A stretch of 32,000 nt of DNA, from contig NZ_CP030032.1 in NCBI RefSeq assembly GCF_003258315.1, positions 2,177,804-2,209,803 of the forward strand. The letters are read 5' to 3'. Source of the DNA: Bradymonas sediminis (GTDB taxonomy: Bacteria > Myxococcota_A > Bradymonadia > Bradymonadales > Bradymonadaceae). Within the stretch, counting starts at the first letter, position 1, and the number at the start of each line of letters is the position of its first letter. This document shows, piece by piece, positions 481 through 26,831 of the stretch. The notes under the pieces are model-generated. The model did no database searches and was not told where the DNA came from. It was given only the letters and a program-made list of their open reading frames with translations. A program made the position numbers and the translations under genes.

Positions 481-518
481 CTTGAAGCACCCAAAAAGAG
501 TAACCATATCACCCCATT

Positions 519-591: not shown

Positions 592-616
592 CTTTAAAAA
601 TCTAAGAGCAGCAAGA

Positions 617-12212: not shown

Positions 12213-12421
12213 AAAAACTCATTTCCTGGTTCGTGAAACAGCCGGAAATCGGCCGCGTCGAGCGCACTATAGCAGCGCATTCGGCGGTGTCTACCGGGTC
12301 TTCGTGGAGGCAAACCAGCCAGCGGTGGGGTTCATTCGATTTTTGATTAGTTGGGCGGTTTTGTTCCGTCTCGCGCGGGCATTATATGTTGTTAGCGTCA
12401 CACTAACCCCGAAACTGAGCT

Positions 12422-12596
12422 TGATTCAGTTTTCCGGACACATCGAAGATGTATAATCACAGAAACTCAACGAGGTGTTCAAATGAAACGGCATCCAAAA
12501 GAATTCAAGCACGAGGCGGTTCGCCTGCCCTATCTCGACGACCGCAGTGACGTTGCTCTCAGCTCCGATTCACGGACTCGCCACAACGTGTTTTAA
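12422..12596 (+). mobile_element. IS3-family left-end remnant (terminal IR plus first ~37 codons of orfA)
   Basis: TG-initiated end TGATTCAGTTTTCCGGACAC (12422-12441). 61 nt later an ATG (12483) opens MKRHPKEFKHEAVRL…, matching the IS3 OrfA N-terminal signature (EFK-EAV-L). The match degenerates to a stop at 12594-12596. The region is visibly lower in GC. Confidence 0.5.
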
Positions 12597-12682
12597 AGCC
12601 CCCTGCATATAGCATATTATTTGGGCAGCGCCCGGATATCACAACGATTTACGCACACCTCCGGTGCGAGCATATCAACAGT

Positions 12683-13663
12683 TCATTCCTCCAATAAACC
12701 ATCAAGATACACCGCCAACCTTTGGTCCAAAACCAGGACCTCCTGCTCCAACCAAACGCCGTCACTCGCAAGCCGCTGGACCCACTCAGGCGCGTCGCCA
12801 AGATCGAGGTCGGCGGGCCACCCTTTCATTTGGCCACGGTGCGCGACCTGCTCCTGCCAAAACGGCGGGAGAGCCCAGATAAGATCGGGACGCAGGCTTC
12901 GCAGATGCTTCATAATACCAAAACCATCGTGATCGAGGTCGCCGAAATGAACCACCGGCGTGGTCGAAAGAAGCTCCAGAAGATACCGCGCCGTCGCCGT
13001 ATTCCAACCCGGAACAAACGCAACCATCCACCCGGGCGGCACCTGAATATCGACAAAAGTGCCCAGATTTTCGACGGTCAACAACGCCTTCGGCAGCACA
13101 CCCCGAAGCTGCGTTCCATCGAGCAAAGCCCGCTCCGTCAGGACTAACTCTCCCAGGCATTCGGCAAGCGCGTTGGCATCCAATTCGGCGGTGTTTCGGA
13201 TCACGCTCAAACCAGCATTTGGGCGGATTCGAACCAGCCCATCCCGCGTCACTTCGACCTCGTCAATGGCCTCCCGCTGCTCCTCACTAAGCGTTGCCTT
13301 GGAATGAACACCGAGCACCGCGTTCGCCGTACGTTGGTTGAGACGCCGATGCCTCATTTCCGGCAAGGCTTCGACGCGCCGCTTTTCGCCCAGACTTCGA
13401 TAGCCATGCAGGTCCACCTTCAAGCCCCGGCGGCGCAGCTCCGCCTCAACCTCGCGCCATGTGGGGAAGACACGATCGAGCATCGTTTCAAGCGCCGGTC
13501 GGGATGCCTCATCGAGCGCCAATTCACGGTGCCGCGCGCTCCGGCGCGACCACGGTAGTTCGGCGAGTTCCTCCCAGGCGGCCGCCTGAGATTTGCGACG
13601 TTTTAGGGTGCCCGACGCCCAAAATTCGAGCAGGGCGAGCTGGTGGGCCTCATTACTCCACAT
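12683..13663 (-). CDS. jetD: Wadjet JetD / MksG-like Toprim (topo VI-like, DUF2220-type) nuclease subunit
   Basis: 326 aa. Toprim-like acidic set E198 (LLTVENLGTF) and D242-x-D244 (VVHFGDLDHDGFGI), C-terminal WLEQE. The ATG overlaps the jetC stop (TGATG, 13661-13665). Confidence 0.85.
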   Translation of the reverse strand: MWSNEAHQLALLEFWASGTLKRRKSQAAAWEELAELPWSRRSARHRELALDEASRPALETMLDRVFPTWREVEAELRRRGLKVDLHGYRSLGEKRRVEALPEMRHRRLNQRTANAVLGVHSKATLSEEQREAIDEVEVTRDGLVRIRPNAGLSVIRNTAELDANALAECLGELVLTERALLDGTQLRGVLPKALLTVENLGTFVDIQVPPGWMVAFVPGWNTATARYLLELLSTTPVVHFGDLDHDGFGIMKHLRSLRPDLIWALPPFWQEQVAHRGQMKGWPADLDLGDAPEWVQRLASDGVWLEQEVLVLDQRLAVYLDGLLEE

Positions 13664-16600
13664 CAGGCGTCGCTCCCTATCGCGCGCCGGCCGGTCACCC
13701 GGACCACCTCGCGCGCATCTTCGTCGACCTGGCGAATAAGCCGATACGTCGTGTTTCCCTGCGCCTGCGCAATCTCAGGTGCCGCGATTAGCAACTGAAG
13801 CTCCAGGTTTTCGCAGAGCTCGAAGAGCACGCCCAAATTATCCTGTGAGAGCCGATTCGCCTCGTCGAGAAAGAGAAAACGCAGCGTCCCACTGGAGCGC
13901 TTTGCGCGCAGCAAATTCGCGCTGCGCTCCCACGCGGTCAGGACCACCATCATGATCGCCGCGCCGACCCCAATCGCCTCACCGGTCGACATCTGAGACG
14001 GCTTCGCCCGCTCCCAATCATGCCCCGCCTGGCGCATCACCTCGATCCGCAATTCCAGATATTCACGATAATCCAATAAGCGCTGCCCCCCCGTTTTCCC
14101 GCCACCAAAACGCGTCGCGATATTCGCCATCGCATCCTCAAAGGACATCTCGGTTTGGAAGAGAAATTTCTGCGCCTCCTCACTGCGCAGCGCCTCCAAG
14201 ACACGCTCCTGGCGCTCGACGCGGTCCACCCGAATTCGCAACCCGTGGATGCTCCCAAATCGAATCTCGCGCAGCTCCTTATTTAACTGCGTCACTTGCC
14301 GATTCGCTTTACGCCGCTGCGTCTCGATATTGCGCGCAACATCCGCAGATTTCCCGCGCAGACTTCTCTCCTGACCGTCCAACTTCGCGCTGAGCTGCTC
14401 CAAATGAATCCGCAGACGCTTAAGCGAGGCGAGCGGGTCATCGCCCTCGGCGATCTGCAAGGGCACACGTCGCCGAAGCCAATCGCGCGCGCCCAGCCAG
14501 GCCCGCAAATAGGCCAACCCCGACTCACCTTTGGTGCCGTCGAGCGCGTCGCGAACTTTCTGCGCTCTTTCAATCCCACCCTCGGATTGCCCGAGACGCT
14601 CTATAAGTAATTTCGCGCTACTTAGAGCCTCCGAAAACAGATTCACCGACCCTTTGTTCTGAGTTTGCTCCAGATAGGCCGGAGTCATCACGCTGCAGAG
14701 AATTCCGGCTTCTTCAGCCTCTTGCTGCAGCCGCTCCCAGCGCGCTGCCTGCGGACGCCACTGAGCTTCTGACTCACTGAGTTCGTTGCGCGCATCCTCA
14801 ACCTTAACTGCCACCGCCTGGTGTCTCACCCGCGCCGCGACGACCGCATCGCCAAGCTCCCGCTCCTGTCTATCGAGCCGCTCAGACTCCGCTCTCCAAC
14901 TCTTATTGGTCTGCTCAGCGCGCACCACCGCTGCATCACTGGCGTCCTCAACACCGGTGGTCGCAAACTCCTCTTTATCCCGCTGAAGTGTGGCGTTTAG
15001 AGCCTTTAATTCCGCGTCCACCAGACGCATGCGCTCACTCGCCGACTCATAATCGACCTCGGCCGCGTCCTGCTCTTTTTGCGCCGCATCACGCGCCTCT
15101 TCGGCCAGCTTCAATTGCGCATTGAGCACCGGGTGAAGCGCCTGCTTTTTTTCCAACGCAGCCGGCGCATCGGACCACTTCAGCGCATGCGAATTCTCGA
15201 CCACTTCACTCAGCGCATCGCGCAAACGCCTCTGCGTATCGCGCTCCTCACACACCTTCACAGCTTGGGCGCGACGCGTCGAAAGCTGCGCCTCGGACAG
15301 AGGAATCTCTCGCAAAATATCAAGCCCCTCTTCCACAATCTGACGCGGCTCAGCCACCGTTTTCACCCGTATTTTTGCCGCGCGCGCGTCGTCTAAACGC
15401 CGCTCAAGCGCACGCGCATGCTCGGCCTGATCGGGCAAATCGAGGAGGTTTGCACTCGGCAAAAGCCCCTGCAGCCCACCGCGTCGTGCCCTGATCTTCT
15501 CAATTTGGGCGCTGAGCCTTTCAAGCTCAAGCGCGTGGCGATGGGCGGTGTTTTTTGCCGCGGCGAACCTCCCCTGAGCCGCGTGCAACTCCGGCGCTGG
15601 GTCCGCGCGCTCAAGAAGCCCGACTTCGGCGAGCAGCACCGTAACACTTGTAAGCGCATCCTCAACGCGGCGCTCATCCGCCACGGCCCGCGCCAACTCT
15701 CCCTCCGCATCGACAACCTCGAGCCCCAATTCCTCGATGAGCTTGGTCCGCGCCCTGCGCCCCAGCGTCGGCTGAGCCGGCACAGTCGTCATGCGATATC
15801 CGCTATAAGCCTCCACGAATACCGCGTCCTCAAAACCCGCACCCTCATCACTCTGCGAGCGCCTCTCCAACTCCTCCGCCAGCCGCGTGCTCTCCTCGAT
15901 AAGCCAGACCGTCTCCGGGCGTCGCGGCTCTTCGGCCAACTTCTTCGCAGCTCGCCAGATATCGTCGACGACAATCGCCTCGGCGAGGGGGCCCAGAAGC
16001 GCCTGCACCCGGCCAGCATCCTCGACCGAAATATTATCAAAATGCCCCGCGAGCAGTTCGCCCTCGGCCGCATCACGCGCCCTCAAAACCTCCGGGCGAA
16101 ACTCACCGCCACCGCCTTCAAGCTGCTCAATTCGCTTCAACAACGCATCAAGTCGAGCGCGCGCTTTTTTGTGGCGCTCGCGAAACGCATCGCGCCTGTC
16201 TCCCAAAAACCTATGCAACGCCTCCACATCGGCGCGACTCTCTAGCGGTCTCTCGGGTTGCCATGCCTTTGCAAGCCTCGCCGCAACTTCGCGCAGCGCG
16301 CGCCAACGCGGAAGCAACGCCTGAAGCGCCTCAATCGAACCCTCCAACTCCCGCACCTCACGCTCGGCCTCATCACTCGCCGCGTGCTCACTCGCCTGAG
16401 CGCCCCGGGCAACTTCCAGCTGCGCATCAGCGCCATCAAAGGCCGCGCGCACATCTTCTTGAGAGCGAAGCTCCGCGTTCGGCTCACTCCAGCGCGCCGC
16501 TTTTTGCCACGCATCTTTTTGCTTCGCCACAAGCACCCGCGCCTTCTCAAGCTGCGCGCTAAACTCTGCCACCTGCGCGCCTAAGCTCTCCAACTCTCGC

Positions 16601-18111
16601 AACGCGCTCAACTCCTGGCGCGCCCTGGCGAGCGCCTGTTGGGCCGAAATAGGCGCGCCGCAAAGCTCAGTGAGCGCCGCCAACACACCCTCATGCTCGC
16701 GGCGACGCTGGTCGGCGGTCTCGAGCTGGCGCTCAAGCACCACGATCCTGCGGTCAAGCTCGCCAACACGCGCCTCACACGCCTGGCGAAAACCCGGCGC
16801 CGTCTCGGCACGCACATCTTCGCCGGGCAACCCACGACGCGCCAATTCAAGCTGCTTAGAAATATGCCTAAAAGCCGAGGCCCGATATCGAAGCCCGTCG
16901 ATTCCCTTCTGAAAATCAGCGAGCCCAAGCGTCGCCGATTTAACGTCTTTCTGAGCATCTTTGTGACGATCTCGCGCAAATGCTCGCGCATCTAAAGCCT
17001 TTTGCTCAGCCTGTTGCGCTTGCTCAAAACGCTCGGCCGCAGCCACTCGTTGCGCCTCGCATTTCGCGATCCGACCCGCAATTTGATGCGCCCCCCGCAC
17101 CGATTCAAGCACTCGCCAGGAATCCTCACTCGCCGCTTTAGCAACCTCTAATTCAGCCACTACTTCCGCACGCTCAAGTTCCTTTTTTTTGAGCTCCGCC
17201 GCCAAATCACGCCCCTTATCTTCAACCCGCTTAAGCTCCTCGCCAGCCCGAATAACCTGCCGATGCAACTCATCCGAGCGCACGCGCGTCGCGTGAATCG
17301 CCGCGCCAAACATTTCCTGCCCCGCCTCAAAGACACCGGTGATCTCGGCCTCCATACGCCGCGAACTCTCGACCTCCATACGCGTGCGCCGACAGGCATC
17401 CAGATTCGCGTGGATGCGCTTTAAGGTGTCCGCCAGACCGGTTTCCTCGCTAAAAAGAAACTCGCGCAGCCTCTTCGTAAGCGCCTGCGAAATCCCCCCG
17501 ACCATGCTCGTGTGCAGCATCTGATTGAATTTGCTGCGCTCCTCACGCTCCGAGAGGCGAAGCGGCGCGACACCGCGCTCAAAGAGTTCGCTAAAATAAT
17601 CGGCTGTCTTCGAATAGCTCTTGAGCTGCGCGCCGCTCAGCGCGGCGAGTTCTTTGAGCCGATTCAACTCCGGAACCGCGTCCAACTCACCGTCCCTTCG
17701 CCCGCGATCAAGCAATAGATCCTGCAGCGAGACATCGTCGGCCAACCCACTAATTATGAAGGGCGTCAGGTTGAGATTTGGCTCCGCTTTCCGCTCCAAA
17801 TGAACCCCCGCAAGTAGCCGCTCACCGCTCCCAAGCCGAAAGTCCAACGCCGCATAAGACGGGCTGTTCGCCTCGCCTAGACGCCCATAAATCCCTTTAT
17901 CGCCCCCGGTCGCCTCCGACACCCCAACATTGCTAAAACGCAAAAACGACAGGTCCGGCAGGAGCACCACATAAGCCGCGATCATCACGGTCGTCTTACC
18001 CGCCCCGTTGGTCCCCTCCAGCGCCGTAACATGTTCGTCGAGCAAATAGCGCTGATAAAAGACGCCCTTCCAATTCACCAGAGCCAACTGTGTTGCGCGA
18101 GTGCGTTTCAC
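13663..18111 (-). CDS. jetC: Wadjet JetC / MksB, MukB-like SMC-family ATPase
   Basis: 1482 aa. Walker A GTNGAGKTT (aa 33-41), a very long A/E/R/L/Q-rich coiled coil, C-terminal Walker B LRFLFLDEA and a MukB-like tail LFELCENLELQLLIAAPE…TTYRLIRQV. GTG start overlaps the jetB stop (GTGA). Confidence 0.9.
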   Translation of the reverse strand: MKRTRATQLALVNWKGVFYQRYLLDEHVTALEGTNGAGKTTVMIAAYVVLLPDLSFLRFSNVGVSEATGGDKGIYGRLGEANSPSYAALDFRLGSGERLLAGVHLERKAEPNLNLTPFIISGLADDVSLQDLLLDRGRRDGELDAVPELNRLKELAALSGAQLKSYSKTADYFSELFERGVAPLRLSEREERSKFNQMLHTSMVGGISQALTKRLREFLFSEETGLADTLKRIHANLDACRRTRMEVESSRRMEAEITGVFEAGQEMFGAAIHATRVRSDELHRQVIRAGEELKRVEDKGRDLAAELKKKELERAEVVAELEVAKAASEDSWRVLESVRGAHQIAGRIAKCEAQRVAAAERFEQAQQAEQKALDARAFARDRHKDAQKDVKSATLGLADFQKGIDGLRYRASAFRHISKQLELARRGLPGEDVRAETAPGFRQACEARVGELDRRIVVLERQLETADQRRREHEGVLAALTELCGAPISAQQALARARQELSALRELESLGAQVAEFSAQLEKARVLVAKQKDAWQKAARWSEPNAELRSQEDVRAAFDGADAQLEVARGAQASEHAASDEAEREVRELEGSIEALQALLPRWRALREVAARLAKAWQPERPLESRADVEALHRFLGDRRDAFRERHKKARARLDALLKRIEQLEGGGGEFRPEVLRARDAAEGELLAGHFDNISVEDAGRVQALLGPLAEAIVVDDIWRAAKKLAEEPRRPETVWLIEESTRLAEELERRSQSDEGAGFEDAVFVEAYSGYRMTTVPAQPTLGRRARTKLIEELGLEVVDAEGELARAVADERRVEDALTSVTVLLAEVGLLERADPAPELHAAQGRFAAAKNTAHRHALELERLSAQIEKIRARRGGLQGLLPSANLLDLPDQAEHARALERRLDDARAAKIRVKTVAEPRQIVEEGLDILREIPLSEAQLSTRRAQAVKVCEERDTQRRLRDALSEVVENSHALKWSDAPAALEKKQALHPVLNAQLKLAEEARDAAQKEQDAAEVDYESASERMRLVDAELKALNATLQRDKEEFATTGVEDASDAAVVRAEQTNKSWRAESERLDRQERELGDAVVAARVRHQAVAVKVEDARNELSESEAQWRPQAARWERLQQEAEEAGILCSVMTPAYLEQTQNKGSVNLFSEALSSAKLLIERLGQSEGGIERAQKVRDALDGTKGESGLAYLRAWLGARDWLRRRVPLQIAEGDDPLASLKRLRIHLEQLSAKLDGQERSLRGKSADVARNIETQRRKANRQVTQLNKELREIRFGSIHGLRIRVDRVERQERVLEALRSEEAQKFLFQTEMSFEDAMANIATRFGGGKTGGQRLLDYREYLELRIEVMRQAGHDWERAKPSQMSTGEAIGVGAAIMMVVLTAWERSANLLRAKRSSGTLRFLFLDEANRLSQDNLGVLFELCENLELQLLIAAPEIAQAQGNTTYRLIRQVDEDAREVVRVTGRRAIGSDA

Positions 18112-18794
18112 GACTCGACCTCCATTTCCAGGTCATCGGCTTCTTCCTCATCGGCATCAACGTCCTTATCTTCGACAACGACCTCACCGCATTCAATCAA
18201 CGCGATAAGCGCCGCCTCCGGGTCGGAGAGCCCACGCACCGGCTCTGCGAAACGCATCAAGGGCGCACGTAACGCGATTTCCATATCCGAAAGACGCTCG
18301 ACAAAACCAAGGCGGTCCAAACCCCTAAGTGCTTTCTGGATCTCCCCGCGCACCTCCCTCTCGGCGACCCGCTCGTCGTGCACCTGACCTCGGCGCGAAT
18401 TCAACGCCTTGAGCAAGCGCTCCTTTCCGACGATATTCGTGAGCAACTCCGTCAGTTGTCCGACCTCAACGAGCCCCACCGACTCCGCCGTCGCCGGGTC
18501 CAAACGCATCAACGCGAGCGCTTGCCCGACGAGCATCTCCGCCGTCGATAGGTGACGCCGACCGAGGCGCGCGCCCGAGGGCAAAAGATAAAAATATGCA
18601 TCGCCGCCTTGCACCAACTCGCAATCAAAGCGGCGATAAAACGTCTCCAAATGATATTGCGCGTCGACCAAAAAGCCGAACCAATCGATATCCTCGCGCC
18701 CAATATGGCGACCGCGCCGCAGTTCAAGGTCGACGTCCGGAAAATGCTCATCCAACACAACATCTTCCAGCGAATTATAAGCCTCACTCCTCAT
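18108..18794 (-). CDS. jetB: Wadjet JetB / MksE, MukE-like subunit
   Basis: 228 aa. …RRGRHIGREDIDWFGFLVDAQYHLETFYRRFDCELV…YFYLLP… resembles MukE, with an acidic C-terminal tail. ATGA overlap with the jetA stop. Confidence 0.85.
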   Translation of the reverse strand: MRSEAYNSLEDVVLDEHFPDVDLELRRGRHIGREDIDWFGFLVDAQYHLETFYRRFDCELVQGGDAYFYLLPSGARLGRRHLSTAEMLVGQALALMRLDPATAESVGLVEVGQLTELLTNIVGKERLLKALNSRRGQVHDERVAEREVRGEIQKALRGLDRLGFVERLSDMEIALRAPLMRFAEPVRGLSDPEAALIALIECGEVVVEDKDVDADEEEADDLEMEVES

Positions 18795-20116
18795 GACTCC
18801 CCTCCAAAATCAGAACGCCACGCCCACTCCTCGATTTCCATCGGCGCGGACTCCAAACGGCACCACTCGCGCTCATGGGGCGCGCGCACCTGAACCCGCT
18901 CCGCGACAAGCGCCGCAATCCGCCCGGCAAAACGATAGCGCTGGGTCGCCGGCATCTCGTGGAGCACCCGTTGCGTCACCTCCACCAACGACTCACACCC
19001 ACTGGCCAACGCCTCATCGACGCGCTCCTCAAGCCGCATCGGAAGAAGGTCCTCCGAGACCAACACTACCGCGCGCTCCCGATCCGCCGTTGGCCGGGTA
19101 ACCGGCGCCCGCTCAACCCGCGAGCGCGCCTCCCGAAACAGCCGAATCGAGGGTTCATCGGCCACCACAAACGCAAAACGCCGCTCAAGCTCAAGCCACC
19201 CGGCGAGTTGGTCGCGCAGGCGTTGGCTGACCGCGCGGTCGGGGTCCAGGCGAACGACTCCGCGCAAAAACCGCTGGATATATTGATAATAATCCGACCA
19301 GGCCCGCTGCCGCTCCCCGCCCCACGCCGCCACCCGTTCCAGGTGCTCCTGAACCCGCTGCGCTTGCTCAACCGCCGCCTCGACCTCCGCATCCATTGCC
19401 AACTGTTCAATATCCTGCAATTGCTCATGCAACAGCGCGCTATCGCGCAACAAAATCTCATTGAGCTCGCTAAGCGTCTCGCTCGTTTTCTCCAGCAGAG
19501 CCTCACACTCTTCCACCGCCGCAAACCAATCCCTCAACAACAACGCGCTAATCTCCTCACGAACCTCCCGCTGCTGCGCATCCATCCCGCGCTGGCGCCG
19601 CTCAATCCCCGCGACCAAATCACCCACCGTCACCCTAAGCGGCTCCACCACATCCGCTCGCCACGCCTGCTCATCCTGCGCCTTGCGCGCATCCACCAAC
19701 ACCGTCCCAAGCTGCGAAATCAACGCCCGCATTAACACCACCAAACTCACTCGAGTCAGCGTCTCGTCTGCCACAAAAAAATCGACCACCGCGACCGCGA
19801 GCTGTGTCAGCGTAAACTCCCCATCGCGCACCACCCCCGCCCCGTCCACCCGCCGCAACAGCCGCTGGTCCCGAAGATGCTGAATCGCATGCGTCGCACG
19901 CTTACTCGGATTCGACGCATCCGGCTCGATGAGTTCACACACTTGCAGATACAAATCCGTTAACTGCTCCCCCGTCAAAGACGCAAAATTCCCATGCTCC
20001 GCCCGCACCCGCAACGCCACCAAATAGCAGAGATGCGCCGGCTCAATCACAAGCCCCACACTCGCCCGACTCAGCTTTCCGAGCACCAGATGAAGGTCCG
20101 TCTGCTCATGCACCAC
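18791..20116 (-). CDS. jetA: Wadjet JetA / MksF, MukF-like kleisin subunit
   Basis: 441 aa. The central block …ISALLLRDWFAAVEECEALLEKTSETLSELNEIL… resembles MukF. GGAGGAGG Shine-Dalgarno sequence directly upstream of tandem GTG codons (20116/20113). Confidence 0.85.
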   Translation of the reverse strand: MVHEQTDLHLVLGKLSRASVGLVIEPAHLCYLVALRVRAEHGNFASLTGEQLTDLYLQVCELIEPDASNPSKRATHAIQHLRDQRLLRRVDGAGVVRDGEFTLTQLAVAVVDFFVADETLTRVSLVVLMRALISQLGTVLVDARKAQDEQAWRADVVEPLRVTVGDLVAGIERRQRGMDAQQREVREEISALLLRDWFAAVEECEALLEKTSETLSELNEILLRDSALLHEQLQDIEQLAMDAEVEAAVEQAQRVQEHLERVAAWGGERQRAWSDYYQYIQRFLRGVVRLDPDRAVSQRLRDQLAGWLELERRFAFVVADEPSIRLFREARSRVERAPVTRPTADRERAVVLVSEDLLPMRLEERVDEALASGCESLVEVTQRVLHEMPATQRYRFAGRIAALVAERVQVRAPHEREWCRLESAPMEIEEWAWRSDFGGES

Positions 20117-20337
20117 CCACCTCCTCCTTCCCCCGGCCGATATATCCGCCCGAGGATTGGCATTATCTCTTCGTACTCAACGAAGTTAGCACGCGCCTCG
20201 GAAGCGCCTCAAGCAAGACCACGCGTTCGAGCACCTCATCGAGCCCAACACATCCGCCGGTTGACCTCACCCCAGCACGTTCCTATCTGTTTCCTCCGAA
20301 CGCACCACACCCACGCTCACCACCCAAGAAGGTCACC

Positions 20338-20698
20338 ATGGACCACGACACCTTCAAAATCGGCCCCGACATGCCCGTCCACCGCCTCGGCTTCGGCGCC
20401 ATGCGCATCACCGGCCCTGGCATCTAGGGCTGGCCCGCAGACCGAGACCGCGACAAAGCCCTCCAGCGACGCGCCGTCGAACTCGGCGTCAAGCTGATTG
20501 ACGCCGCCGAGCCTATAGCCCCGAAGTCAGCGAGTACCTGCTCTGCGACGCTCTCAAACCCTATAAAAATATCAACATCTCCACCAAGAACGGGCTCCTG
20601 CATGCAGGTGCCAACGACTGGTGCCCAAACGGCCCCACCCCAAACACCTCGAGATCGCCCTCAACGACTTGCTGCGACGCTTCGAGGTCGACCAAATC
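20338..20698 (+). pseudogene. aldo/keto reductase pseudogene (nonsense, at least 2 frameshifts, 3' truncation)
   Basis: MDHDTFKIGPDMPVHRLGFGAMRITGPGI then TAG (20425-20427) where AKRs have Trp. Homology continues in shifted frames (…RRAVELGVKLID…, …SPEVSEYLLCDALKPYKNINISTKNG…, …KHLEIALNDLLRRFEVDQI) and stops abruptly near 20698. Confidence 0.8.
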
Positions 20699-21150
20699 TC
20701 CCGAATCCGCTCGAGCAACTCGTCGAAATAGTCTTTGCCGAAGCGTTTGTTTAGCTTGAGACGCCCATCGTCCAGCAGAAAACCCTTGACGATAAACTCG
20801 CGCAAAGTGTTCGTGGCCCAGATGCGAAAATGGGTCGCCTGGGTGCTGTTGACGCGGTAGCCGACCGAGATAATCGCGTCGAGATTATAGTGTGAGATCT
20901 CGCGGGTCACCTCGCGGTTTCCCTCGGTTCAAAATATTCGAACATTTCGAATGGTTGCTTCTTCGATAAGTTCGCCGCTCTTATACACCTGTTTCAGGTG
21001 ATGATTAATTGTTTGCACTTCAACTCCAAAAAGCTCCGCCATCCTCCGCTGCGAAAGCCAAAAGCTCTCGTCTTCATGACGGACTTCGACCCGGACTTTG
21101 CCCTCGGGCGACTCATAGAAGATAAGTTCACTTTTATGGTGATCGGTCAT
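20695..21150 (-). pseudogene. RhuM-family protein pseudogene (in-frame TGA plus C-terminal truncation)
   Basis: Track ORFs 20929-21150 and 20572-20910 are one frame, interrupted only by TGA at 20929-20931: …EEATIRNVRIF*TEGNREVTREISHYNLDAIISVGYRVNSTQATHFRIWATNTLREFIVKGFLLDD…FGKDYFDELLERIREI. RhuM-like sequence ends at about 20695, where it abuts the AKR fragment. Confidence 0.85.
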
Positions 21151-21283
21151 TTTTTCGTGCCCTGTGAAAGTTGCTCAATCCAGACCTCAAAATGCCTGTC
21201 TAGAACTGGCCGATTTAACGGAACAGCTCAAGTTCGGTGAATTCCAACTCTATACAATAATCATGATAGCTCAAATAGTTGGC

Positions 21284-21751
21284 TCACTCCCCTCGCTCCT
21301 CTTTGGCACGCTGCTCTTCGCGATAGAATGCGCGCTCAGCAACGCCAACCTGCCACTCCCAAAACGGTAAAAAAACGTCCTCCTTCTCCTCTTTGAGTTG
21401 GTGCCGTGCTGATTCCATTGCCTCAATAATGACAACAGGAACCTCGCCAAGCGTACCGAACCAAGAACCCGTGCTACGATCTCTCAACGCATAATAAAAT
21501 GCGTCACACTCGTCCGATTCTGACTTCGAAGCCCACTCTAATGCTGGCCGTGCGATAGTTCGCCAAGCGGACGTGCCGATGGCAAAGCCGCTGCTTAGTC
21601 GAGCCAGTTGCAAAGCCGAATCCACCGATACTGCTTGACTGATCTGATATTTCAACTCGTTAGGTACTACTCGGCCGTGCGGATCAACATCCAGAAGAAA
21701 TCCCCCAAGAAAGTCGCGGCTATTACTGCCACTCGCGACGCAGTTCAGCAC
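21284..21751 (-). CDS. hypothetical protein (orphan, lower GC), possibly a fragment
   Basis: 155-aa ORF with no motif I recognise. Its first codons overlap the IS3 orfB remnant on the other strand. Confidence 0.35.
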   Translation of the reverse strand: MLNCVASGSNSRDFLGGFLLDVDPHGRVVPNELKYQISQAVSVDSALQLARLSSGFAIGTSAWRTIARPALEWASKSESDECDAFYYALRDRSTGSWFGTLGEVPVVIIEAMESARHQLKEEKEDVFLPFWEWQVGVAERAFYREEQRAKEERGE

Positions 21752-21900
21752 GCCATTTTGCGGTACTTAATGTGGTCCAATGCACATCACATTTACTCAT
21801 TCAATGACTATGTTTCTCCGATGCAGTTTGAGAGGTTCATATTGACGCGGGAAGCGGCAGCGTAAATGCTTCTATTTTAGTGTCCGAAAGACCGGGGGCA
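21731..21900 (+). mobile_element. IS3-family right-end remnant (C-terminal tail of orfB/integrase plus terminal IR)
   Basis: …TRDAVQHAILRYLMWSNAHHIYSFNDYVSPMQFERF… matches the conserved IS3 OrfB C-terminus pattern (TR…I..YI..YN..R.HS.LGY.SP..FE), stop at 21863-21865. The element ends …GTGTCCGAAAGACCGGGGGCA at 21900 (reverse complement TGCCCCCGGTCTTTCGGACAC), the TG…CA type terminus. Confidence 0.55.
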
Positions 21901-22861
21901 TGCCAGGTCGTCGAGACCGCGGGCGCCGCGCATTTTGTGAACTCTTATGGCGGCGACGCGCACCTGCTGCTCTATTCGAATCGCCGCGCCGACGCGGTCC
22001 TTTTGGACGCGCTCATCGCCACCGAGCCAAAGAGCGACCTCATCCCAAAAATCGTGAAGGGCTTGCAGACAAATCGCACCCGCGGGCGCTGGAATAATGC
22101 CCAGGAGAACGTCTTTATCCTGCTGGCGCTCGACCGCTATTTCGACACCTACGAGAAGCAGACGCCTAATTTTGTGGCCAATATCTGGCTCGGCGACGAC
22201 TTCGTCGGTGAACACGCATTTAAGGGCCGAAGCGCCGATTATCAAAACTCGAGCGTCCTGATGAAAGCGGTGGTCGACAAGACCGTGAAGGCCGCCGATA
22301 TCACCATTAAGAAAAACGGTGAGGGCCGCCTTTATTATCGCCTGGGCATGCGCTACGCGCTTAAATCACTCGCGCAGGAGGCCGCCGATTATGGCTTCGC
22401 GGTCGATCGAAAATACGAGGGCGTTGACAACCCGAAGGACGTCTTCCAGCGCGAAGACGGCACCTGGGAGGTCAAGCTCGGCAGCCGGGTACGTGTGCGC
22501 CTGACGATGGTCGCCCCGACGCGTCGCTATCATGTCGCCCTGGTCGATCCCCTGCCCGCCGGGCTCGAGCCGCTTAACCTCGCCCTGGCCACGACCGAAG
22601 CGGTGCCCGAAGATCCGCATGCGAGTACAGCGCCCACGCCCTATTGGTGGTGGTCGCGGCCCTGGTATTCGCACCAGAACCTTCGCGACGAGCGGGCCGA
22701 GGCGTTTAGCTCACTATTGGGCGCCGGCGTGCACGAGTTCACCTACACCACCCGGGCCACCACACCCGGTGAATTCGTGGTGCCGCCGACCAAGGCCGAG
22801 GAGATGTATAGCCCCGCAGACATTCGGACGAAGTGCGTCGACGAGGATGGTCGTGAAATAG
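21901..22861 (+). pseudogene. alpha-2-macroglobulin family protein, C-terminal ~320 codons only (5'-truncated at the IS end, +1 frameshift near the 3' end)
   Basis: …LLLYSNRRADAVLLDALIATEPKSDLIPKIVKGLQTNRTRGRWNNAQENVFILLALDRYF… and …GEFVVPPTKAEEMYSP are typical bacterial A2M C-terminal domains. The natural ending PQTFGRSASTRMVVK* (stop 22859-22861) lies in the +1 frame after a CCCC run at 22812-22815. Confidence 0.8.
22813..22857 (+). repeat. 45-bp direct repeat, left copy (A2M 3' end; att-like)
   Basis: CCCGCAGACATTCGGACGAAGTGCGTCGACGAGGATGGTCGTGAA is identical to 24035-24079. Confidence 0.95.
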
Positions 22862-22953
22862 GGAATGCCTGCCAACGGGGAGGCTAATTTTGCCTCTAAA
22901 GGGCAATCTAGCTTGACTCTAAGGCAGATGATTCTATAGTCCTAAGCAATATG

Positions 22954-22990
22954 ACCGACGCCTCTGCACATCTTTTGTGTACGCGTCGGT
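22954..22990 (-). terminator. possible terminator hairpin downstream of the Abi gene
   Basis: ACCGACGC (22954-22961) and GCGTCGGT (22983-22990) form an 8-bp stem with additional inner pairing, 20 nt after the abi stop. The U-tract is weak. Confidence 0.3.
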
Positions 22991-23010
22991 TCTCATTTGC
23001 CCACCTTATA

Positions 23011-23937
23011 TTACTGCCAGAGCGACCACGTTTCCCAGTTCTCAAAAGTACCCAGACCGTCTAAATCAAAGCGTTTTGGGAACTCCTCGTTTAGCAATCG
23101 CTGTAGCCGCTGACCCCACGAAGAGGTCGGACAGATGACTTTCAGCAATTGCTGCATAATACAGAAATAGAAAAATGGTCGCTCATGTCGCAGTGCTCTC
23201 GGCCAAGTTGGCGGGCTAGCTGAAAGTTCTGGAACATTGATATTCCATAGTCGACTGTGGTGAGCCGCCACGTTGCGTATAAAGTTCAAACTTCGCAGCC
23301 ATTGTGCAAAAGCCTGCCCATCCGGAGCGCCATAATTTTCAGCGATAATCTGTTTATCGTGATGCTGCATCCCGGCAAATAAGTGTGACAATAAGCCGAA
23401 ATCCCAAATTTCAATGGCGACCCAAATTGGGAGTGAACCGCCATATTCTTGGGCGTGATGCTCGATAAATGGTTGTTTTCGAGCGCGCTGGCGTGCCCTT
23501 TCATATTTAGACAACCATAACTCGTGTTTTGTTCGGCCGTTTCTCATTTTCTTTTTTGCGAAATTGCCATGCAGGTATTTGGGCAATTCATGCGCGCATG
23601 GGTCATATTTTCCAAGCAGATAGGCGACATCGACGCGCACAGCCATCTCGATACGTTCCAATGCATCAAGCGCCAAAAGTCGTAATTTTTTGTCGAAGAC
23701 ATATAAACGCGCCACATCCTCAAAACGGCTCCCCGGCATAAACTCATCTAGCCTCTGTCGGGCCTCAGAGTCTGATGCGTCGATGACGCGTAGTGGATAC
23801 CAATATCCACTTAAACGATAATAACCAATGCGCTGCAAATAATCCGTTGCAGCCGCCACATCCTCAACCAGCAAACCGCGTCCTTGCAATCGCTGCAATT
23901 GCTTTTCATATGAACGCCAAGGTTTGAGAGGTTTCAT
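23011..23937 (-). CDS. Abi_2 family (AbiD/AbiF-like) abortive-infection phage-resistance protein
   Basis: 308 aa. …YLQRIGYYRLSGYWYP…LYVFDKKLRLLALDALERIEMAVR…LPIWVAIEIWDFGLLSHLF…WLRSLNFIRNVAAHHSRLWN… is the characteristic Abi_2 motif series. Visibly lower GC than the flanks. Confidence 0.85.
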   Translation of the reverse strand: MKPLKPWRSYEKQLQRLQGRGLLVEDVAAATDYLQRIGYYRLSGYWYPLRVIDASDSEARQRLDEFMPGSRFEDVARLYVFDKKLRLLALDALERIEMAVRVDVAYLLGKYDPCAHELPKYLHGNFAKKKMRNGRTKHELWLSKYERARQRARKQPFIEHHAQEYGGSLPIWVAIEIWDFGLLSHLFAGMQHHDKQIIAENYGAPDGQAFAQWLRSLNFIRNVAAHHSRLWNINVPELSASPPTWPRALRHERPFFYFCIMQQLLKVICPTSSWGQRLQRLLNEEFPKRFDLDGLGTFENWETWSLWQ

Positions 23938-24034
23938 CGATTTTACTTGGTGAGGGTGTTGGCTCTAGCGAGTACAAATGATCCAGAACGAAAGACTAAA
24001 GCTTCCCGTCAAATTTGGCGAGCAATAGAAATAA

Positions 24035-24079
24035 CCCGCAGACATTCGGACGAAGTGCGTCGACGAGGATGGTCGTGAA
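24035..24079 (+). repeat. 45-bp direct repeat, right copy
   Basis: Identical to 22813-22857. It continues GTGA, so it also encodes …RMVVK* (AAG TGA here versus AAA TAG in the left copy). Confidence 0.95.
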
Positions 24080-25472: not shown

Positions 25473-26729
25473 TTATTTCGAGCGTTTTTTCGCCGCGGCT
25501 GCCGCCCTCAAACGGTCTTTTTTGCTCGGGCGTTTCCCCTTCACAGGCGCGCCACCTTTTTGGGGCGCCGGCGCCTCGCCAGTGAGCCCAAAGCCCTCGA
25601 GTTGCTCGCGCTTAAGGCGCACGCCTGCGCGTTTCTCGATCAGCTTAAAATGAGCGGCGGAGTCGTGGTCGATAAACGAAATCGCCACGCCCTCTTCGCC
25701 GGCCCGGCCCGTTCGCCCGATGCGGTGCACATAATCATTGGGGGAGCGCGGCAGGTCGAAGTTCACCACACACGAGAGCTTGTCGATATCGATGCCGCGC
25801 GCGGCGATATCGGTGGAGACCAGGACGCGGTTCTTCCCATTTTTGAACCCCTCAAGGGTGTCGGTGCGCTGGTCCTGGTGCAAATCTCCGTGAAAATCGA
25901 TCGCGGCGAACCCTGCCTTGGTGAGCTTTCTGGCCAGGTTGCGGGCTTTGACCTTGGTGGCCACGAAGACGAGGACCTGGTTCCAATCCTCGGTCTCGAG
26001 CAGGTGCTGCAGCAGCGGGCGTCGGGCATGTGAATCAACCTCGAAGACCCGCTGGGTGATCTTCTCGACGGTGGGCTCTTCGCCCTCGACCTCGACGCGC
26101 ACCGGGTCGCTTAAGAAGCGCGCGCAAAGGCCCTCTACTTTGGGCGAAAAGGTCGCAGAAAATAAGAGGTTTTGGCGATTCACGGGCAACGCGTTGAGCA
26201 AGGCGTCGAGTTCGTCGGCGAAGCCCAGGTTGAGCAGTTTATCGGCTTCGTCCAGGACGAGCGTCTGCACGCGCGAGAGGCAGAGCCAATCGCGCTCCAA
26301 TAGGTCCAAGAGCCGGCCGGGCGTGGCGACCACGACGTCGGCGCCGCGGCTGAGCGCGCGGCTCTGGTCTTCGAGGTCCACGCCACCGATCACCGAGACC
26401 ACGCGAATTTTGCGGGGCGACAAGTTAGAGTACGTCGCGAACGCCGCGGCGACCTGCACGGCGAGTTCGCGGGTGGGCGCGACGGCCAGCACCTGCGGGT
26501 CGAAGTCGTCGGTGGGCGCGGCGTTTAATTGCATGATAATCGGCAACGCGAACGCGGCCGTTTTGCCCGTACCTGTCTGCGCGACCCCGATGACGTCTTG
26601 CCCGTCGAGGACACGCGGAATCGCCAACGTCTGGATAGGCGTTGGCGTTGCATACCCCTTATTCTTCAGGGTGTTGAGCAGATACTCAGGCAGCTTTAAT
26701 GATTCAAATGACACGATAACCTTGGACAT
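25473..26729 (-). CDS. DEAD-box ATP-dependent RNA helicase (RhlE-like, basic C-terminal tail)
   Basis: Q-motif …TPTPIQ, AQTGTGKT, VLDEAD, SAT, HRIGRTGRAG, then a Lys/Arg/Ala-rich tail. ATG at 26729 (MSKVIVSFESL) is preferred over the TTG at 26753. Confidence 0.92.
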   Translation of the reverse strand: MSKVIVSFESLKLPEYLLNTLKNKGYATPTPIQTLAIPRVLDGQDVIGVAQTGTGKTAAFALPIIMQLNAAPTDDFDPQVLAVAPTRELAVQVAAAFATYSNLSPRKIRVVSVIGGVDLEDQSRALSRGADVVVATPGRLLDLLERDWLCLSRVQTLVLDEADKLLNLGFADELDALLNALPVNRQNLLFSATFSPKVEGLCARFLSDPVRVEVEGEEPTVEKITQRVFEVDSHARRPLLQHLLETEDWNQVLVFVATKVKARNLARKLTKAGFAAIDFHGDLHQDQRTDTLEGFKNGKNRVLVSTDIAARGIDIDKLSCVVNFDLPRSPNDYVHRIGRTGRAGEEGVAISFIDHDSAAHFKLIEKRAGVRLKREQLEGFGLTGEAPAPQKGGAPVKGKRPSKKDRLRAAAAAKKRSK

Positions 26730-26831
26730 AATAGAGAAGCGAAACCGGGCCAACCGGCCCTATCTAGTCTTTAGCATAGACCAGGGCTCGCAGTCTTAGT
26801 GTCGACCGTGCGCGAAGTAAATCATGCAGCG

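What the first reader, a model, noticed from the sequence alone, without database searches (positions are those of the whole stretch)
12683..20116. Four-gene condensin-like plus Toprim nuclease operon: a Wadjet (JetABCD / MksBEFG) anti-plasmid defence system
Four minus-strand ORFs (441, 228, 1482, 326 aa) are chained by start/stop overlaps: ATGA at 18791-18794, GTGA at 18108-18111, TGATG at 13661-13665. This implies one translationally coupled unit. The 1482-aa protein has an N-terminal Walker A (GTNGAGKTT), a coiled coil of more than 1000 aa and a C-terminal Walker B (FLFLDEA), which is SMC/MukB architecture. The two upstream proteins look like the kleisin (MukF-like) and KITE (MukE-like) partners. 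The last gene carries a Toprim-type acidic constellation (E198 in TVENLG, D242/D244 in GDLDHDG) plus a terminal WLEQE, as in DUF2220/topoisomerase-VI-like JetD/MksG. By established knowledge this gene set is the Wadjet system, which recognises and cleaves small circular DNA (plasmids). It sits in an accessory island, not at a chromosome-maintenance locus.
Basis: partly seen in the sequence, partly recalled or inferred. Interest (0 to 1): 0.9.

Follow-up and report, generated by a model that had tools for sequence, protein, structure and literature searches.

The report
MukBEF-type Wadjet plasmid-defence operon
This is an intact four-gene DNA-motor-plus-nuclease operon of the Wadjet plasmid-defence kind, sitting in an 11.75-kb inserted defence island; its three motor subunits are the closest nuclease-carrying relatives of MukBEF, the complex that organises the E. 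coli chromosome.

Summary
Four minus-strand ORFs (441, 228, 1482 and 326 aa) are chained by ATGA, GTGA and TGATG overlaps, and every quoted motif is present.

The Wadjet/MksBEFG reading is supported, with one correction. The kleisin, KITE and SMC subunits are MukF, MukE and MukB by sequence, not JetA, JetB and JetC. They match Muk Pfam domains. The SMC scores 889 bits against the NCBIfam MukB equivalog (cut-off 699). In the PDB sequence searches they match only Muk chains. PADLOC's JetA and JetB models do not match.

The 326-aa protein is a compact JetD/MksG nuclease. Its AlphaFold model (pLDDT 93) is closest to MksG, then JetD, then topoisomerase VI-A. E198, D242, D244, E306 and E308 are invariant in the family, and no tyrosine is conserved.

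The window is Bradymonas sediminis CP030032. This exact operon is already listed as "FEBG" in the Wadjet census of Bürmann et al. 2025, whose tree places it sister to canonical, nuclease-free MukBEF.

Two relatives have asparaginase directly next to folD, so window 12304-24049 is an insertion. It also carries AbiD and gene debris.

No member of this subfamily appears to have been tested. Novelty: new variant of a known kind, already catalogued. Interest about 0.45, not 0.9.

The parts
18791..20116 (-). mksF/mukF-like kleisin gene, 441 aa, GTG start. RBS GAAGGAGGAG at 20130-20121.
   Evidence: ORF. Pfam MukF_M 3e-26 and KicB winged-helix 4e-10. NCBIfam MukF 300.6 bits, below the cut-off of 407. 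In the PDB search only MukF chains score significantly, 1e-34. 27% identity to E. coli MukF.
18108..18794 (-). mksE/mukE-like KITE gene, 228 aa. Its start overlaps the kleisin stop (ATGA).
   Evidence: Pfam MukE 6e-34 and MksE 7e-31. In the PDB only MukE chains match, 1e-27. 31% identity to E. coli MukE. Overlap confirmed.
13663..18111 (-). mksB/mukB-like SMC ATPase gene, 1482 aa. Walker A at residues 33-41 (K39), MukB-type hinge at 648-809, signature MSTGE, Walker B FLFLDEA (E1418).
   Evidence: Pfam MukB N-terminal domain 5e-71, MukB_hinge 6e-29, SbcC_Walker_B. NCBIfam MukB equivalog 888.9 bits, above the cut-off of 699, over the full length. In the PDB only MukB chains match, 5e-106 over residues 3-1482. 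Motifs. 27% identity to E. coli MukB over 1051 aligned positions.
12683..13663 (-). mksG/jetD-like Toprim nuclease gene, 326 aa. Shares one base with the SMC stop codon (TGATG). Catalytic residues E198, D242, D244, E306, E308.
   Evidence: Pfam JetD_C 1.9e-9. PADLOC JetD1 1.6e-9. PDB phmmer match to MksG 8b7f across the ENL and GDLDxDG motifs. AlphaFold2 pLDDT 93.3. Foldseek: MksG 3e-8, JetD 4e-6, topoisomerase VI-A 9e-5. Invariant residues.
20117..20337 (-). Leader and presumed promoter region of the operon.
   Evidence: Sequence read. No sigma-70 consensus site was found here, so the promoter is inferred, not shown.
12304..24049 (.). 11.75-kb insertion (defence island) between folD and the asparaginase gene. 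It contains the operon, AbiD and gene fragments.
   Evidence: blastn: window 1619-12303 matches L094 20611-9911, and window 24050-25125 matches L094 9833-8759, leaving 77 bp between them in L094. L094 and L095 have asparaginase adjacent or nearly adjacent to folD.
23011..23937 (-). AbiD (Abi_2) abortive-infection gene, 308 aa, full length. The second defence gene of the island.
   Evidence: Pfam Abi_2 6e-54. PADLOC AbiD 6.5e-61.
20572..21150 (-). Two fragments of a RhuM / PDC-S05 gene (73-aa and 112-aa ORFs); a pseudogene.
   Evidence: Pfam Virulence_RhuM covers only profile positions 18-96 of 252. PADLOC PDC-S05 2e-36, partial. Sequence read.
20338..20510 (+). N-terminal fragment of an aldo/keto reductase gene with an in-frame TAG; a pseudogene.
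   Evidence: Translation. Weak Pfam Aldo_ket_red match, E = 0.0013, profile positions 1-40.
21880..22887 (+). C-terminal (MG10) fragment of an alpha-2-macroglobulin gene, 335 aa.
   Evidence: Pfam bMG10. 72% DNA identity to the 3' end of a full 2044-aa A2M gene in L094.
21284..21751 (-). 155-aa ORF of unknown function inside the island.
   Evidence: No Pfam or PADLOC match. It is called as a gene in a second assembly of this species.

Best explanation
This is a functional, horizontally acquired Wadjet-group (MksFEBG) plasmid-restriction system. Its motor is of the MukBEF type.

Inferred mechanism, by analogy with type I and type II Wadjet:
1. The kleisin dimerises two SMC motors.
2. The complex loads on DNA and extrudes loops using ATP (Walker A K39, Walker B E1418).
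3. On a small closed circle the two motors run out of DNA and stall.
4. The stalled state recruits or releases the dimeric Toprim nuclease.
5. The nuclease cuts the DNA hydrolytically, using metal ions held by E198, D242/D244 and E306/E308.
6. The large chromosome is never fully extruded, so it is spared.

Shown here: the gene set, the family assignments, intact catalytic motifs, the predicted nuclease fold, conserved F-E-B-G linkage across phyla, and a location in an inserted defence island.

Inferred, not shown: loop extrusion, specificity for circular DNA, activation of the nuclease, and any plasmid-restriction phenotype.
For: - Translationally coupled four-gene unit.
- All four products have significant family matches, and the ATPase and Toprim motifs are intact.
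- The nuclease model is confident (pLDDT 93.3). It is closest to MksG and JetD over its whole length.
- E198 and D242 align with MksG E236 and D279. The alignment is; mapping the tagged chain numbering to native MksG numbering is my own count. Mutating those MksG residues drastically impairs nuclease activity (PMC10123090).
- F-E-B-G synteny: 75 of 78 judgeable related loci have a MukB-like ORF directly upstream of the nuclease gene, and 47 meet strict coverage thresholds for all three upstream genes. The loci come from Myxococcota, Planctomycetota, Alpha-, Beta- and Gammaproteobacteria, Acidobacteriota, Gemmatimonadota and Spirochaetes.
- The operon sits in an 11.75-kb insert that two relatives lack, together with AbiD.
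- Homologous operons sit beside a CBASS operon (L087) and beside a SAVED-domain gene plus IS21 (L084). An orphan, probably truncated, nuclease gene sits beside a type III restriction-modification system (L082).
- Some copies are disrupted by insertion sequences or truncated (L018, L085). This is expected for dispensable genes.
- The family occurs in Pseudomonas, Stutzerimonas and an Enterobacterales MAG, and (per the census) in Salmonella Paratyphi B. By established knowledge these already have a housekeeping condensin.
- A published census lists this exact operon as a Wadjet-group FEBG operon.
Against: - No member of this MukBEF-proximal subfamily appears to have been tested for plasmid restriction. 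I found no such paper.
- The motor subunits are MukFEB-like by every sequence test, and the closest characterised relative folds chromosomes.
- The nuclease's N-terminal domain is about 75 residues shorter than in JetD type I and matches no Pfam family. Docking to the motor and autoinhibition may therefore differ.
- No sigma-70-like promoter was found upstream.
- The operon's neighbours in the island are pseudogene debris, so expression is unproven.
- I could not test whether B. sediminis also has Smc-ScpAB.
Confidence: 0.78

Rival explanations
1. It is the cell's housekeeping MukBEF condensin for chromosome folding and segregation. The fourth gene is either an unrelated passenger or a DNA-processing helper for chromosome maintenance.
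For: The SMC passes NCBI's MukB equivalog cut-off. All three motor subunits significantly match only MukF, MukE and MukB chains in the PDB. Lengths are almost identical to E. coli (441/228/1482 versus 440/234/1486 aa). PGAP annotates a homologous operon as 'chromosome partition protein MukB/MukE'.
Against: - The operon lies in an 11.75-kb insert that two relatives with otherwise collinear flanks lack.
- MukF and MukE fall well below their equivalog cut-offs.
- The nuclease gene shares a base with the SMC stop codon and is linked to a MukB-like gene in 75 of 78 loci.
- Canonical MukBEF lacks the nuclease (PMC7617805). In E. coli the gene after mukB is ldtD.
- Copies elsewhere are broken by insertion sequences or truncated.
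- The phyletic distribution is patchy.
Confidence: 0.05
2. It has a dual role. The MukBEF-type motor folds the host chromosome, as P. aeruginosa MksBEF does, and also restricts small circular DNA through the nuclease. This would be a living intermediate between defence and chromosome maintenance.
For: In the published tree the clade is sister, with bootstrap 100, to nuclease-free MukBEF, which is itself nested among nuclease-bearing clades. The SMC is 1482 aa, the same length as MukB and much longer than the JetC profiles (1097-1361 positions). Reviews propose that Wadjet also extrudes loops on the chromosome and that MukBEF arose from it by loss of the nuclease (PMC10586767; bioRxiv 10.1101/2025.03.10.642339).
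Against: There is no direct evidence. Close relatives lack the operon, so any contribution to the chromosome is dispensable. The defence-island context argues that selection acts on the immunity function.
Confidence: 0.12
3. It is an inactive relic: a once-functional system decaying along with the rest of the island.
For: Immediately upstream lie an aldo/keto reductase fragment with an in-frame stop, split RhuM fragments and a truncated A2M fragment. No consensus promoter was found. Decayed copies of this family exist elsewhere.
Against: All four ORFs are full length compared with homologues: family SMCs have a median of 1472 aa and the nucleases are 315-345 aa. No frameshifts or internal stops are present. 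Every catalytic motif is intact. The start/stop overlaps and the RBS are preserved.
Confidence: 0.05

Closest known systems
Canonical MukBEF of E. coli and Photorhabdus thracensis (chromosome-organising SMC complex)
   Same: Same gene order F-E-B and near-identical lengths. The same Pfam domains match (KicB, MukF_M, MukE, MukB N-terminal domain, MukB_hinge). The alignment to MukB is collinear over the full length (PDB 9gm6/7nyw, E about 1e-105). The SMC passes the NCBIfam MukB equivalog cut-off. It is the sister clade in the published SMC tree.
   Different: Identity to the E. coli proteins is only 27-31%. MukF and MukE fall below their equivalog cut-offs. A Toprim nuclease gene is fused into the operon, which MukBEF lacks. 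It lies in a horizontally acquired island of a member of the Myxococcota rather than in the core genome of a gammaproteobacterium.
Type I Wadjet: JetABCD (E. coli GF4-3, P. aeruginosa PA14) and MksBEFG (C. glutamicum)
   Same: Four-gene SMC + kleisin + KITE + Toprim nuclease operon. The nuclease has the same predicted two-domain fold (Foldseek matches to 8b7f and 7til). It has the same acidic metal-binding residues, E198/D242 corresponding to MksG E236/D279. It lacks a conserved catalytic tyrosine. It sits in a defence-island context.
   Different: PADLOC JetA and JetB models do not match, and JetC models match only weakly. Even at E <= 1 the kleisin and KITE searches returned no JetA or JetB chain. 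The SMC search at E <= 0.001 returned no JetC or MksB chain. The SMC is about 380 aa longer than the JetC1 profile (1482 aa versus 1097 positions). The nuclease is about 75 aa shorter at its N-terminus, and that domain has no Pfam match.
Type II Wadjet (Neobacillus vireti nvJET-II)
   Same: It is described as having a MukBEF-like dimer geometry, a channel-less MukB-like hinge and intermediate arm length, while still restricting circular plasmids (bioRxiv 10.1101/2025.03.10.642339). This shows that MukBEF-like motor features are compatible with nuclease-based defence.
   Different: [quoted passage not shown] Here the KITE is a single 228-aa MukE-like protein. The PADLOC JetC2 match is only 25.6 bits.
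P. aeruginosa MksBEF (nuclease-free accessory condensin)
   Same: A MukBEF-like SMC complex found outside the enterobacteria.
   Different: The NCBIfam condensin MksE model scores only 15.6 bits against a cut-off of 400. MksBEF has no nuclease.
Topoisomerase VI-A / Spo11
   Same: Predicted Toprim fold with an E...DxD metal site. Foldseek matches to 1d3y, 2zbk and 2q2e at about 1e-4.
   Different: No invariant or nearly invariant tyrosine occurs in 44 homologues. A covalent cleavage-religation cycle is therefore not expected; this looks like a hydrolytic nuclease.

Membership tests
Wadjet group, broad sense (MksBEFG: SMC + kleisin + KITE + Toprim nuclease) | Co-directional operon encoding kleisin, KITE, SMC and a flanking nuclease | tested here: met
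   Four overlapping minus-strand ORFs in F-E-B-G order. The exact operon is listed as 'FEBG' cluster 306 in Data S1 of PMC7617805.
Wadjet group, broad sense (MksBEFG: SMC + kleisin + KITE + Toprim nuclease) | SMC larger than 890 aa with Walker motifs, a hinge and a long coiled coil | tested here: met
   1482 aa. Walker A at 33-41, Walker B at 1412-1418, MukB_hinge at 648-809.
Wadjet group, broad sense (MksBEFG: SMC + kleisin + KITE + Toprim nuclease) | JetD/MksG nuclease: CAP-like N-terminal domain plus a Toprim C-terminal domain with conserved acidic metal ligands | tested here: met
   Pfam JetD_C. E198, D242, D244, E306 and E308 are invariant. The model (pLDDT 93.3) aligns over its whole length to MksG 8b7f and JetD 7til.
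Wadjet group, broad sense (MksBEFG: SMC + kleisin + KITE + Toprim nuclease) | Restricts small circular DNA (reduces plasmid transformation; ATP-dependent cleavage) | not testable with these tools
   Requires cloning and a transformation assay, or biochemistry.
Wadjet types I-III (JetABCD as defined by PADLOC models) | JetA (DUF3375-type kleisin) model match | tested here: not met
   The best JetA hit is E = 0.0092 at 12.7 bits, with no stretch passing on its own. Pfam gives MukF_M and KicB instead.
Wadjet types I-III (JetABCD as defined by PADLOC models) | JetB (DUF4194-type KITE) model match | tested here: not met
   The 228-aa protein matches no PADLOC family. Pfam gives MukE and MksE.
Wadjet types I-III (JetABCD as defined by PADLOC models) | JetC model match over the whole SMC | tested here: inconclusive
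   JetC1 scores 44.4 bits, with its best stretch in the C-terminal head. JetC2 scores 25.6 bits. The MukB equivalog scores 888.9 bits.
Wadjet types I-III (JetABCD as defined by PADLOC models) | JetD with both an N-terminal (DUF3322-type) and a C-terminal (DUF2220) domain | tested here: inconclusive
   The C-terminal domain matches. The N-terminal 183 aa have no significant Pfam match, but the predicted fold aligns with MksG and JetD over the full length.
Canonical MukBEF (chromosome partition complex) | All three NCBIfam equivalog models (MukB, MukF, MukE) at or above cut-off | tested here: not met
   MukB 888.9 against 699, met. MukF 300.6 against 407, not met. MukE 117.4 against 250, not met.
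Canonical MukBEF (chromosome partition complex) | No MksG/JetD nuclease gene in the operon | tested here: not met
   The nuclease gene at 12683-13663 overlaps the SMC stop codon. MukBEF is stated to lack it. In E. coli the gene after mukB is ldtD.
Canonical MukBEF (chromosome partition complex) | Groups inside the E. coli MukB clade | tested here: not met
   In the published tree AWV89344.1 falls in the all-FEBG sister clade of (E. coli AAC74010.1 + Endozoicomonas), with bootstrap 100. I read this from the published tree file; I did not recompute it.
Canonical MukBEF (chromosome partition complex) | Core-genome locus conserved among relatives | tested here: not met
   The operon is absent at the syntenic folD-asparaginase junction of two relatives.
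Topoisomerase VI-A / Spo11 | Catalytic tyrosine in a 5Y-CAP domain | tested here: not met
   No tyrosine appears among the invariant or 90%-conserved columns of 44 homologues.

The most novel reading that the evidence does not exclude
This MukBEF-proximal FEBG clade may be a fourth, uncharacterised Wadjet type that preserves the ancestral state of MukBEF. It would combine a full MukB-length motor, MukB-type hinge and MukF/MukE partners with a compact nuclease. It might both fold the host chromosome and restrict plasmids. Its roughly doubled arm length might also shift the size or obstacle limits of target recognition. Removing the nuclease could then be enough to turn it into a chromosome-segregation machine.
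Probability: 0.15. Interest if true: 0.8.

Novelty: new variant of a known kind. Interest (0 to 1): 0.45.

Why it matters
1. The origin of MukBEF is an open question. Reviews only speculate that it arose by domestication of a Wadjet system. This operon belongs to the nuclease-bearing clade that is sister to MukBEF. It therefore offers a concrete system for testing what changed when the nuclease was lost. Examples: can the motor without its nuclease complement an E. coli mukB mutant, and does adding the nuclease to MukBEF make it restrict plasmids?

2. All mechanistic Wadjet work so far is on types I and II. A motor with MukB-length arms and a shortened nuclease would test how general the "total extrusion" model is.

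3. There is a practical annotation issue. PADLOC's JetA and JetB models miss these systems. PGAP labels homologous operons "chromosome partition protein MukB/MukE" with chromosome-segregation GO terms. The subfamily may therefore be under-counted as defence and over-counted as housekeeping condensin.

4. The folD|asparaginase junction in this lineage is a small, integrase-free hotspot that holds different defence cargo in different relatives.

Tried and rejected
- Bürmann 2019 (PMC6433275), wanted to check the D. halophilus 'MukBEF': the paper is not held.
- Island borders. There is no tRNA gene at either border; the only tRNAs are at 408-592. No direct or inverted repeat of 10 nt or more is shared by the two borders. 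No integrase or transposase lies inside the island.
- A 37-aa ORF at about 12484-12597(+) looked to me like the N-terminus of an IS3 OrfA. Pfam gives no match even at E <= 10, so I dropped the idea.
- The promoter scan found no sigma-70-like site upstream of the operon. The overall count equals the shuffle expectation.
- Rfam found nothing apart from the two tRNAs.
- My first ORF picks at 25.9-27.5 kb (+) and 28.7-31.4 kb (-) had no Pfam hits. Comparison with L094 showed they were on the wrong strand. The real genes are a DEAD-box helicase at 25473-26753(-) and an alpha-2-macroglobulin gene starting near 27752(+).
- Plasmid carriage: only 2 of 72,556 plasmid records hold a relative of the nuclease. 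One is an 880-kb Burkholderia replicon. The other is a 4.9-Mb Aeromonas record that is probably a chromosome. The family is therefore not typically plasmid-borne.
- I could not test whether B. sediminis also encodes Smc-ScpAB, because no tool reads the whole genome.
- I did not recompute the SMC phylogeny. Placement rests on the published tree file plus my HMM and PDB comparisons.
Full report
**1. Observation**

The four minus-strand ORFs exist exactly as described:
- 18791-20116, 441 aa, GTG start
- 18108-18794, 228 aa
- 13663-18111, 1482 aa, GTG start
- 12683-13663, 326 aa

The junctions, read on the minus strand, are ATGA (18794-18791), GTGA (18111-18108) and TGATG (13665-13661). A GAAGGAGGAG ribosome-binding site lies 5 nt before the first start codon.

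The SMC has Walker A GTNGAGKTT at residues 33-41 (K39), a MukB-type signature motif MSTGE, and Walker B FLFLDEA (D1417/E1418). The 326-aa protein has TVENLG (E198), GDLDHDG (D242/D244) and WLEQE (304-308).

**2. What the proteins are**

Pfam:
- 441-aa protein: MukF_M (3e-26) and the MukF winged-helix domain KicB (4e-10).
- 228-aa protein: MukE (6e-34) and MksE (7e-31).
- 1482-aa protein: MukB N-terminal domain (5e-71, 239 bits), MukB_hinge (6e-29) and SbcC_Walker_B.
- 326-aa protein: JetD_C (1.9e-9, residues 191-259).

NCBIfam: the SMC scores 888.9 bits against the MukB equivalog model over its whole length, above the cut-off of 699. MukF (300.6 against 407) and MukE (117.4 against 250) fall below their cut-offs.

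PADLOC defence models: the nuclease matches JetD1 (1.6e-9). The SMC matches JetC only weakly (44 bits, best stretch in the C-terminal head). The kleisin and KITE do not match JetA or JetB.

PDB sequence searches: the three motor subunits significantly match only Muk chains.
- SMC: MukB of P. thracensis, 5e-106 over residues 3-1482.
- Kleisin: MukF, 1e-34.
- KITE: MukE, 1e-27.
- No Wadjet JetA or JetB chain appeared at E <= 1, and no JetC or MksB chain at E <= 0.001.

Identity to the E. coli K-12 proteins is 27% (MukB, collinear over 1051 positions), 27% (MukF) and 31% (MukE). The lengths nearly coincide. In E. coli the gene after mukB is ldtD, not a nuclease.

**3. The nuclease**

Forty-four homologues align over their full length. 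Invariant residues include E198, N199, G201, D205, H239, D242, D244, G247, W304, E306, Q307 and E308. No tyrosine is invariant or nearly invariant.

An AlphaFold2 model built on this alignment has mean pLDDT 93.3. Its best PDB matches by Foldseek are C. glutamicum MksG 8b7f (3e-8), P. aeruginosa JetD 7til (4e-6) and then topoisomerase VI-A (about 1e-4). The alignments to MksG and JetD span both domains.

phmmer aligns LTVENLGTF and HFGDLDHDGF to LMVENLDSF and YWGDLDLDGF of MksG. By my count of the tagged chain numbering, E198 and D242 then correspond to MksG E236 and D279. Alanine mutants of those residues have drastically impaired nuclease activity (PMC10123090). By motif resemblance only, the WLEQE glutamates match the E349/E351 "alternative nucleophiles" of MksG; I did not align them.

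PADLOC maps residues 164-256 onto JetD1 profile positions 241-340 of 409. The protein is therefore about 75 residues shorter than type I JetD at the N-terminus. That N-terminal domain matches no Pfam family.

The best reading is a compact, tyrosine-less, metal-dependent JetD/MksG-type endonuclease.

**4. Origin and prior knowledge**

The nuclease is 100% identical to a Bradymonas sediminis protein that NCBI names [quoted passage not shown].

Data S1 of Bürmann et al., Cell 2025 (PMC7617805), lists this exact operon. The entry is CP030032.1, mksG 2190486-2191466 through mksF 2196594-2197919, structure "FEBG", cluster 306. The gene lengths are identical to those in the window.

In that paper's tree file the Bradymonas SMC (AWV89344.1) groups with the following, all FEBG operons:
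- two Sorangium strains
- P. aeruginosa NCMG1179
- Massilia
- Sulfurifustis
- Thiococcus
- Plasticicumulans

This clade is sister, with bootstrap 100, to (E. coli MukB + Endozoicomonas), which are FEB without a nuclease. The next outgroups are again FEBG: Azonexus and a Nitrosomonadales bacterium; then Salmonella Paratyphi B SPB7, Vibrio and Shewanella; then Desulfovermiculus.

The main text of the paper says only that MukBEF "lacks MksG/JetD" like several other group members. Reviews call the Wadjet-to-MukBEF origin a speculation or "one hypothesis". I found no experimental work on this subfamily.

**5. Conservation of the unit**

A pattern scan of one genome per species found 185 relatives of the nuclease, of which 80 loci were fetched. 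tblastn with the four window proteins gave:

| Class | Loci |
|---|---|
| Complete F-E-B-G in the same order and spacing (strict coverage thresholds) | 47 |
| MukB-like ORF directly upstream, with lower tblastn coverage or partly missing genes | 14 |
| MukB-like ORF running up to a contig end | 14 |
| Too little upstream sequence to judge | 2 |
| No MukB-like gene upstream | 3 |

So 75 of the 78 judgeable loci link this nuclease to a MukB-like SMC.

The hosts span Myxococcota, Planctomycetota, Alpha-, Beta- and Gammaproteobacteria, Acidobacteriota, Gemmatimonadota and Spirochaetes. In 56 family SMCs recovered from these loci, Walker B is LFLDEA in 55, and the median length is 1472 aa.

A profile search of 1.84 billion representative proteins finds 177 at E <= 1e-30. 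Full-length ones are almost all 315-345 aa. This is a small, coherent subfamily.

**6. Accessory or housekeeping?**

Two relatives, whose FolD proteins are 84% and 82% identical to the window's, keep the flanking genes collinear: pyruvate kinase, FHA-GGDEF, PGI, TonB, gcvP, gcvH, gcvT and folD.

By blastn, window 1619-12303 matches L094 20611-9911, and window 24050-25125 matches L094 9833-8759. L094 has 77 bp where the window has 11.75 kb (12304-24049). The folD promoter-like -35/-10 site at 12293-12266 is conserved, and homology ends just beyond it.

The second relative, L095, carries a different 1.4-kb insert at the same junction, with a fragment of a type IIG restriction-methylase gene. The junction is therefore a variable defence hotspot.

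Besides the operon, the island holds:
- a full-length AbiD gene (PADLOC 6.5e-61)
- split RhuM / PDC-S05 fragments
- an aldo/keto reductase fragment with an in-frame TAG
- an alpha-2-macroglobulin C-terminal fragment
- a 155-aa ORF with no matches

Elsewhere, homologous operons or nuclease genes lie in these contexts:
- L087: next to a CBASS operon with SMODS, HORMA, an AAA ATPase and a Cap17-like gene.
- L084, an 880-kb Burkholderia replicon: next to a SAVED-domain gene and IS21.
- L086: among helicase- and nuclease-like genes.
- L082: an orphan, probably truncated, nuclease gene next to a type III restriction-modification system.
- L018 and L085: copies interrupted by transposases.

All of this fits a dispensable, horizontally moving defence module, not a core condensin.

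**7. Mechanism**

By analogy with type I and type II Wadjet, I infer the following. A dimer of MukBEF-type motors loads on DNA and extrudes loops using ATP. On a small closed circle it reaches a stalled, fully extruded state. That state licenses the Toprim dimer to cut.

This report shows only the parts list, the intact motifs, the predicted fold, the linkage and the genomic context. Loop extrusion, sensing of circular DNA and nuclease activation are inferred. I put this explanation at about 0.78. The rivals are a dual chromosome-plus-defence role (0.12), a housekeeping MukBEF (0.05) and an inactive relic (0.05).

**8. Comparison and novelty**

It works like Wadjet and is a member of the broad Wadjet/Mks group. 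It fails the model-based tests for types I-III JetA and JetB. It also fails three defining tests for canonical MukBEF: the nuclease is present, MukF and MukE are below cut-off, and the locus is not in the core genome.

It is best described as a MukBEF-type Wadjet variant. It is catalogued but uncharacterised, so I rate it "new variant of a known kind".

The kind is well known and the operon is already in a published table.

The remaining value is threefold: a handle on the defence-to-chromosome transition that produced MukBEF, an untested Wadjet architecture, and a warning about annotation. I score interest at 0.45.

Noticed in passing
window 12304 | 24050 junction; L095:1066-2462; L094:9834-9910: The folD|asparaginase intergenic junction is a variable hotspot with no integrase. 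It is 77 bp in one relative. In another it holds a 1.4-kb insert with a type IIG restriction-methylase (MmeI_N) fragment. In the window it holds the 11.75-kb Wadjet + AbiD island. No tRNA gene or border repeats were found.
   Followed up: partly
L084 (Burkholderia pyrrocinia NZ_CP091309.1, 76461-83855): RefSeq/PGAP annotates a homologous F-E-B-G operon as 'chromosome partition protein MukB/MukE' with chromosome-segregation GO terms, and the nuclease only as 'DUF2220 domain-containing protein'. The operon sits next to a SAVED-domain gene and IS21. This is probably a systematic mis-annotation of the subfamily.
   Followed up: partly
L003:6108-7112 (Aeromonas aquatilis); hit H2 (Aeromonas caviae NZ_AP026896.1, 2394011-2394808): Aeromonas genomes carry an orphan gene for a distant (32% identical) short JetD-like protein. 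It still has the ENxG, GDLDxxG and WLEQE motifs, but no Muk-like genes lie beside it.
   Followed up: no
L018:6032-10981; L085:3287-11077; proteins P0268, P0294, P0290: Decayed or rearranged copies of the family. In one, MukB is truncated next to a transposase and an integrase. In another, mukF is split by a transposase and MukB is shortened to 1011 aa. Some single ORFs fuse a truncated MukB (N-terminal head plus hinge) directly to the nuclease.
   Followed up: partly
window 21880-22887(+) and window 27752-32000(+): The island contains a 335-aa C-terminal (MG10) fragment of an alpha-2-macroglobulin gene. It is 72% identical in DNA to the 3' end of a full A2M gene in a relative. A full A2M gene starts near 27752, on the other side of the asparaginase gene. 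How the fragment reached the island is unexplained.
   Followed up: partly
window 13001-21000: The plus strand shows a strongly negative GC skew (-0.14 to -0.32) across the operon, against about 0 to -0.09 in the flanks. It may reflect the glutamate- and arginine-rich coiled-coil coding on the minus strand, or a foreign origin.
   Followed up: no
window 408-481 and 519-592 (+): Two tandem tRNA-Ala(GGC) genes 38 nt apart, with identical Rfam scores.
   Followed up: no
Data S1 of PMC7617805: Desulfovermiculus halophilus NZ_JIAK01000018.1, 57413-64286: The D. halophilus operon is listed as FEBG, with a 327-aa MksG and a 1194-aa MksB. From memory, unverified, this is the 'MukBEF' that has been used for electron microscopy. 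If so, a purified so-called MukBEF actually comes from a nuclease-bearing operon.
   Followed up: no
L087:1-3637: A complete CBASS-like operon (SMODS cyclase, bacterial HORMA, AAA ATPase, Cap17-like effector) ends 15 bp before a homologous F-E-B-G operon. An HTH gene and a serine recombinase follow it, which suggests a mobile composite defence island.
   Followed up: no
window 21284-21751 (-): A 155-aa ORF inside the island with no Pfam or PADLOC match. It is called as a gene in a second assembly of the species.
   Followed up: partly
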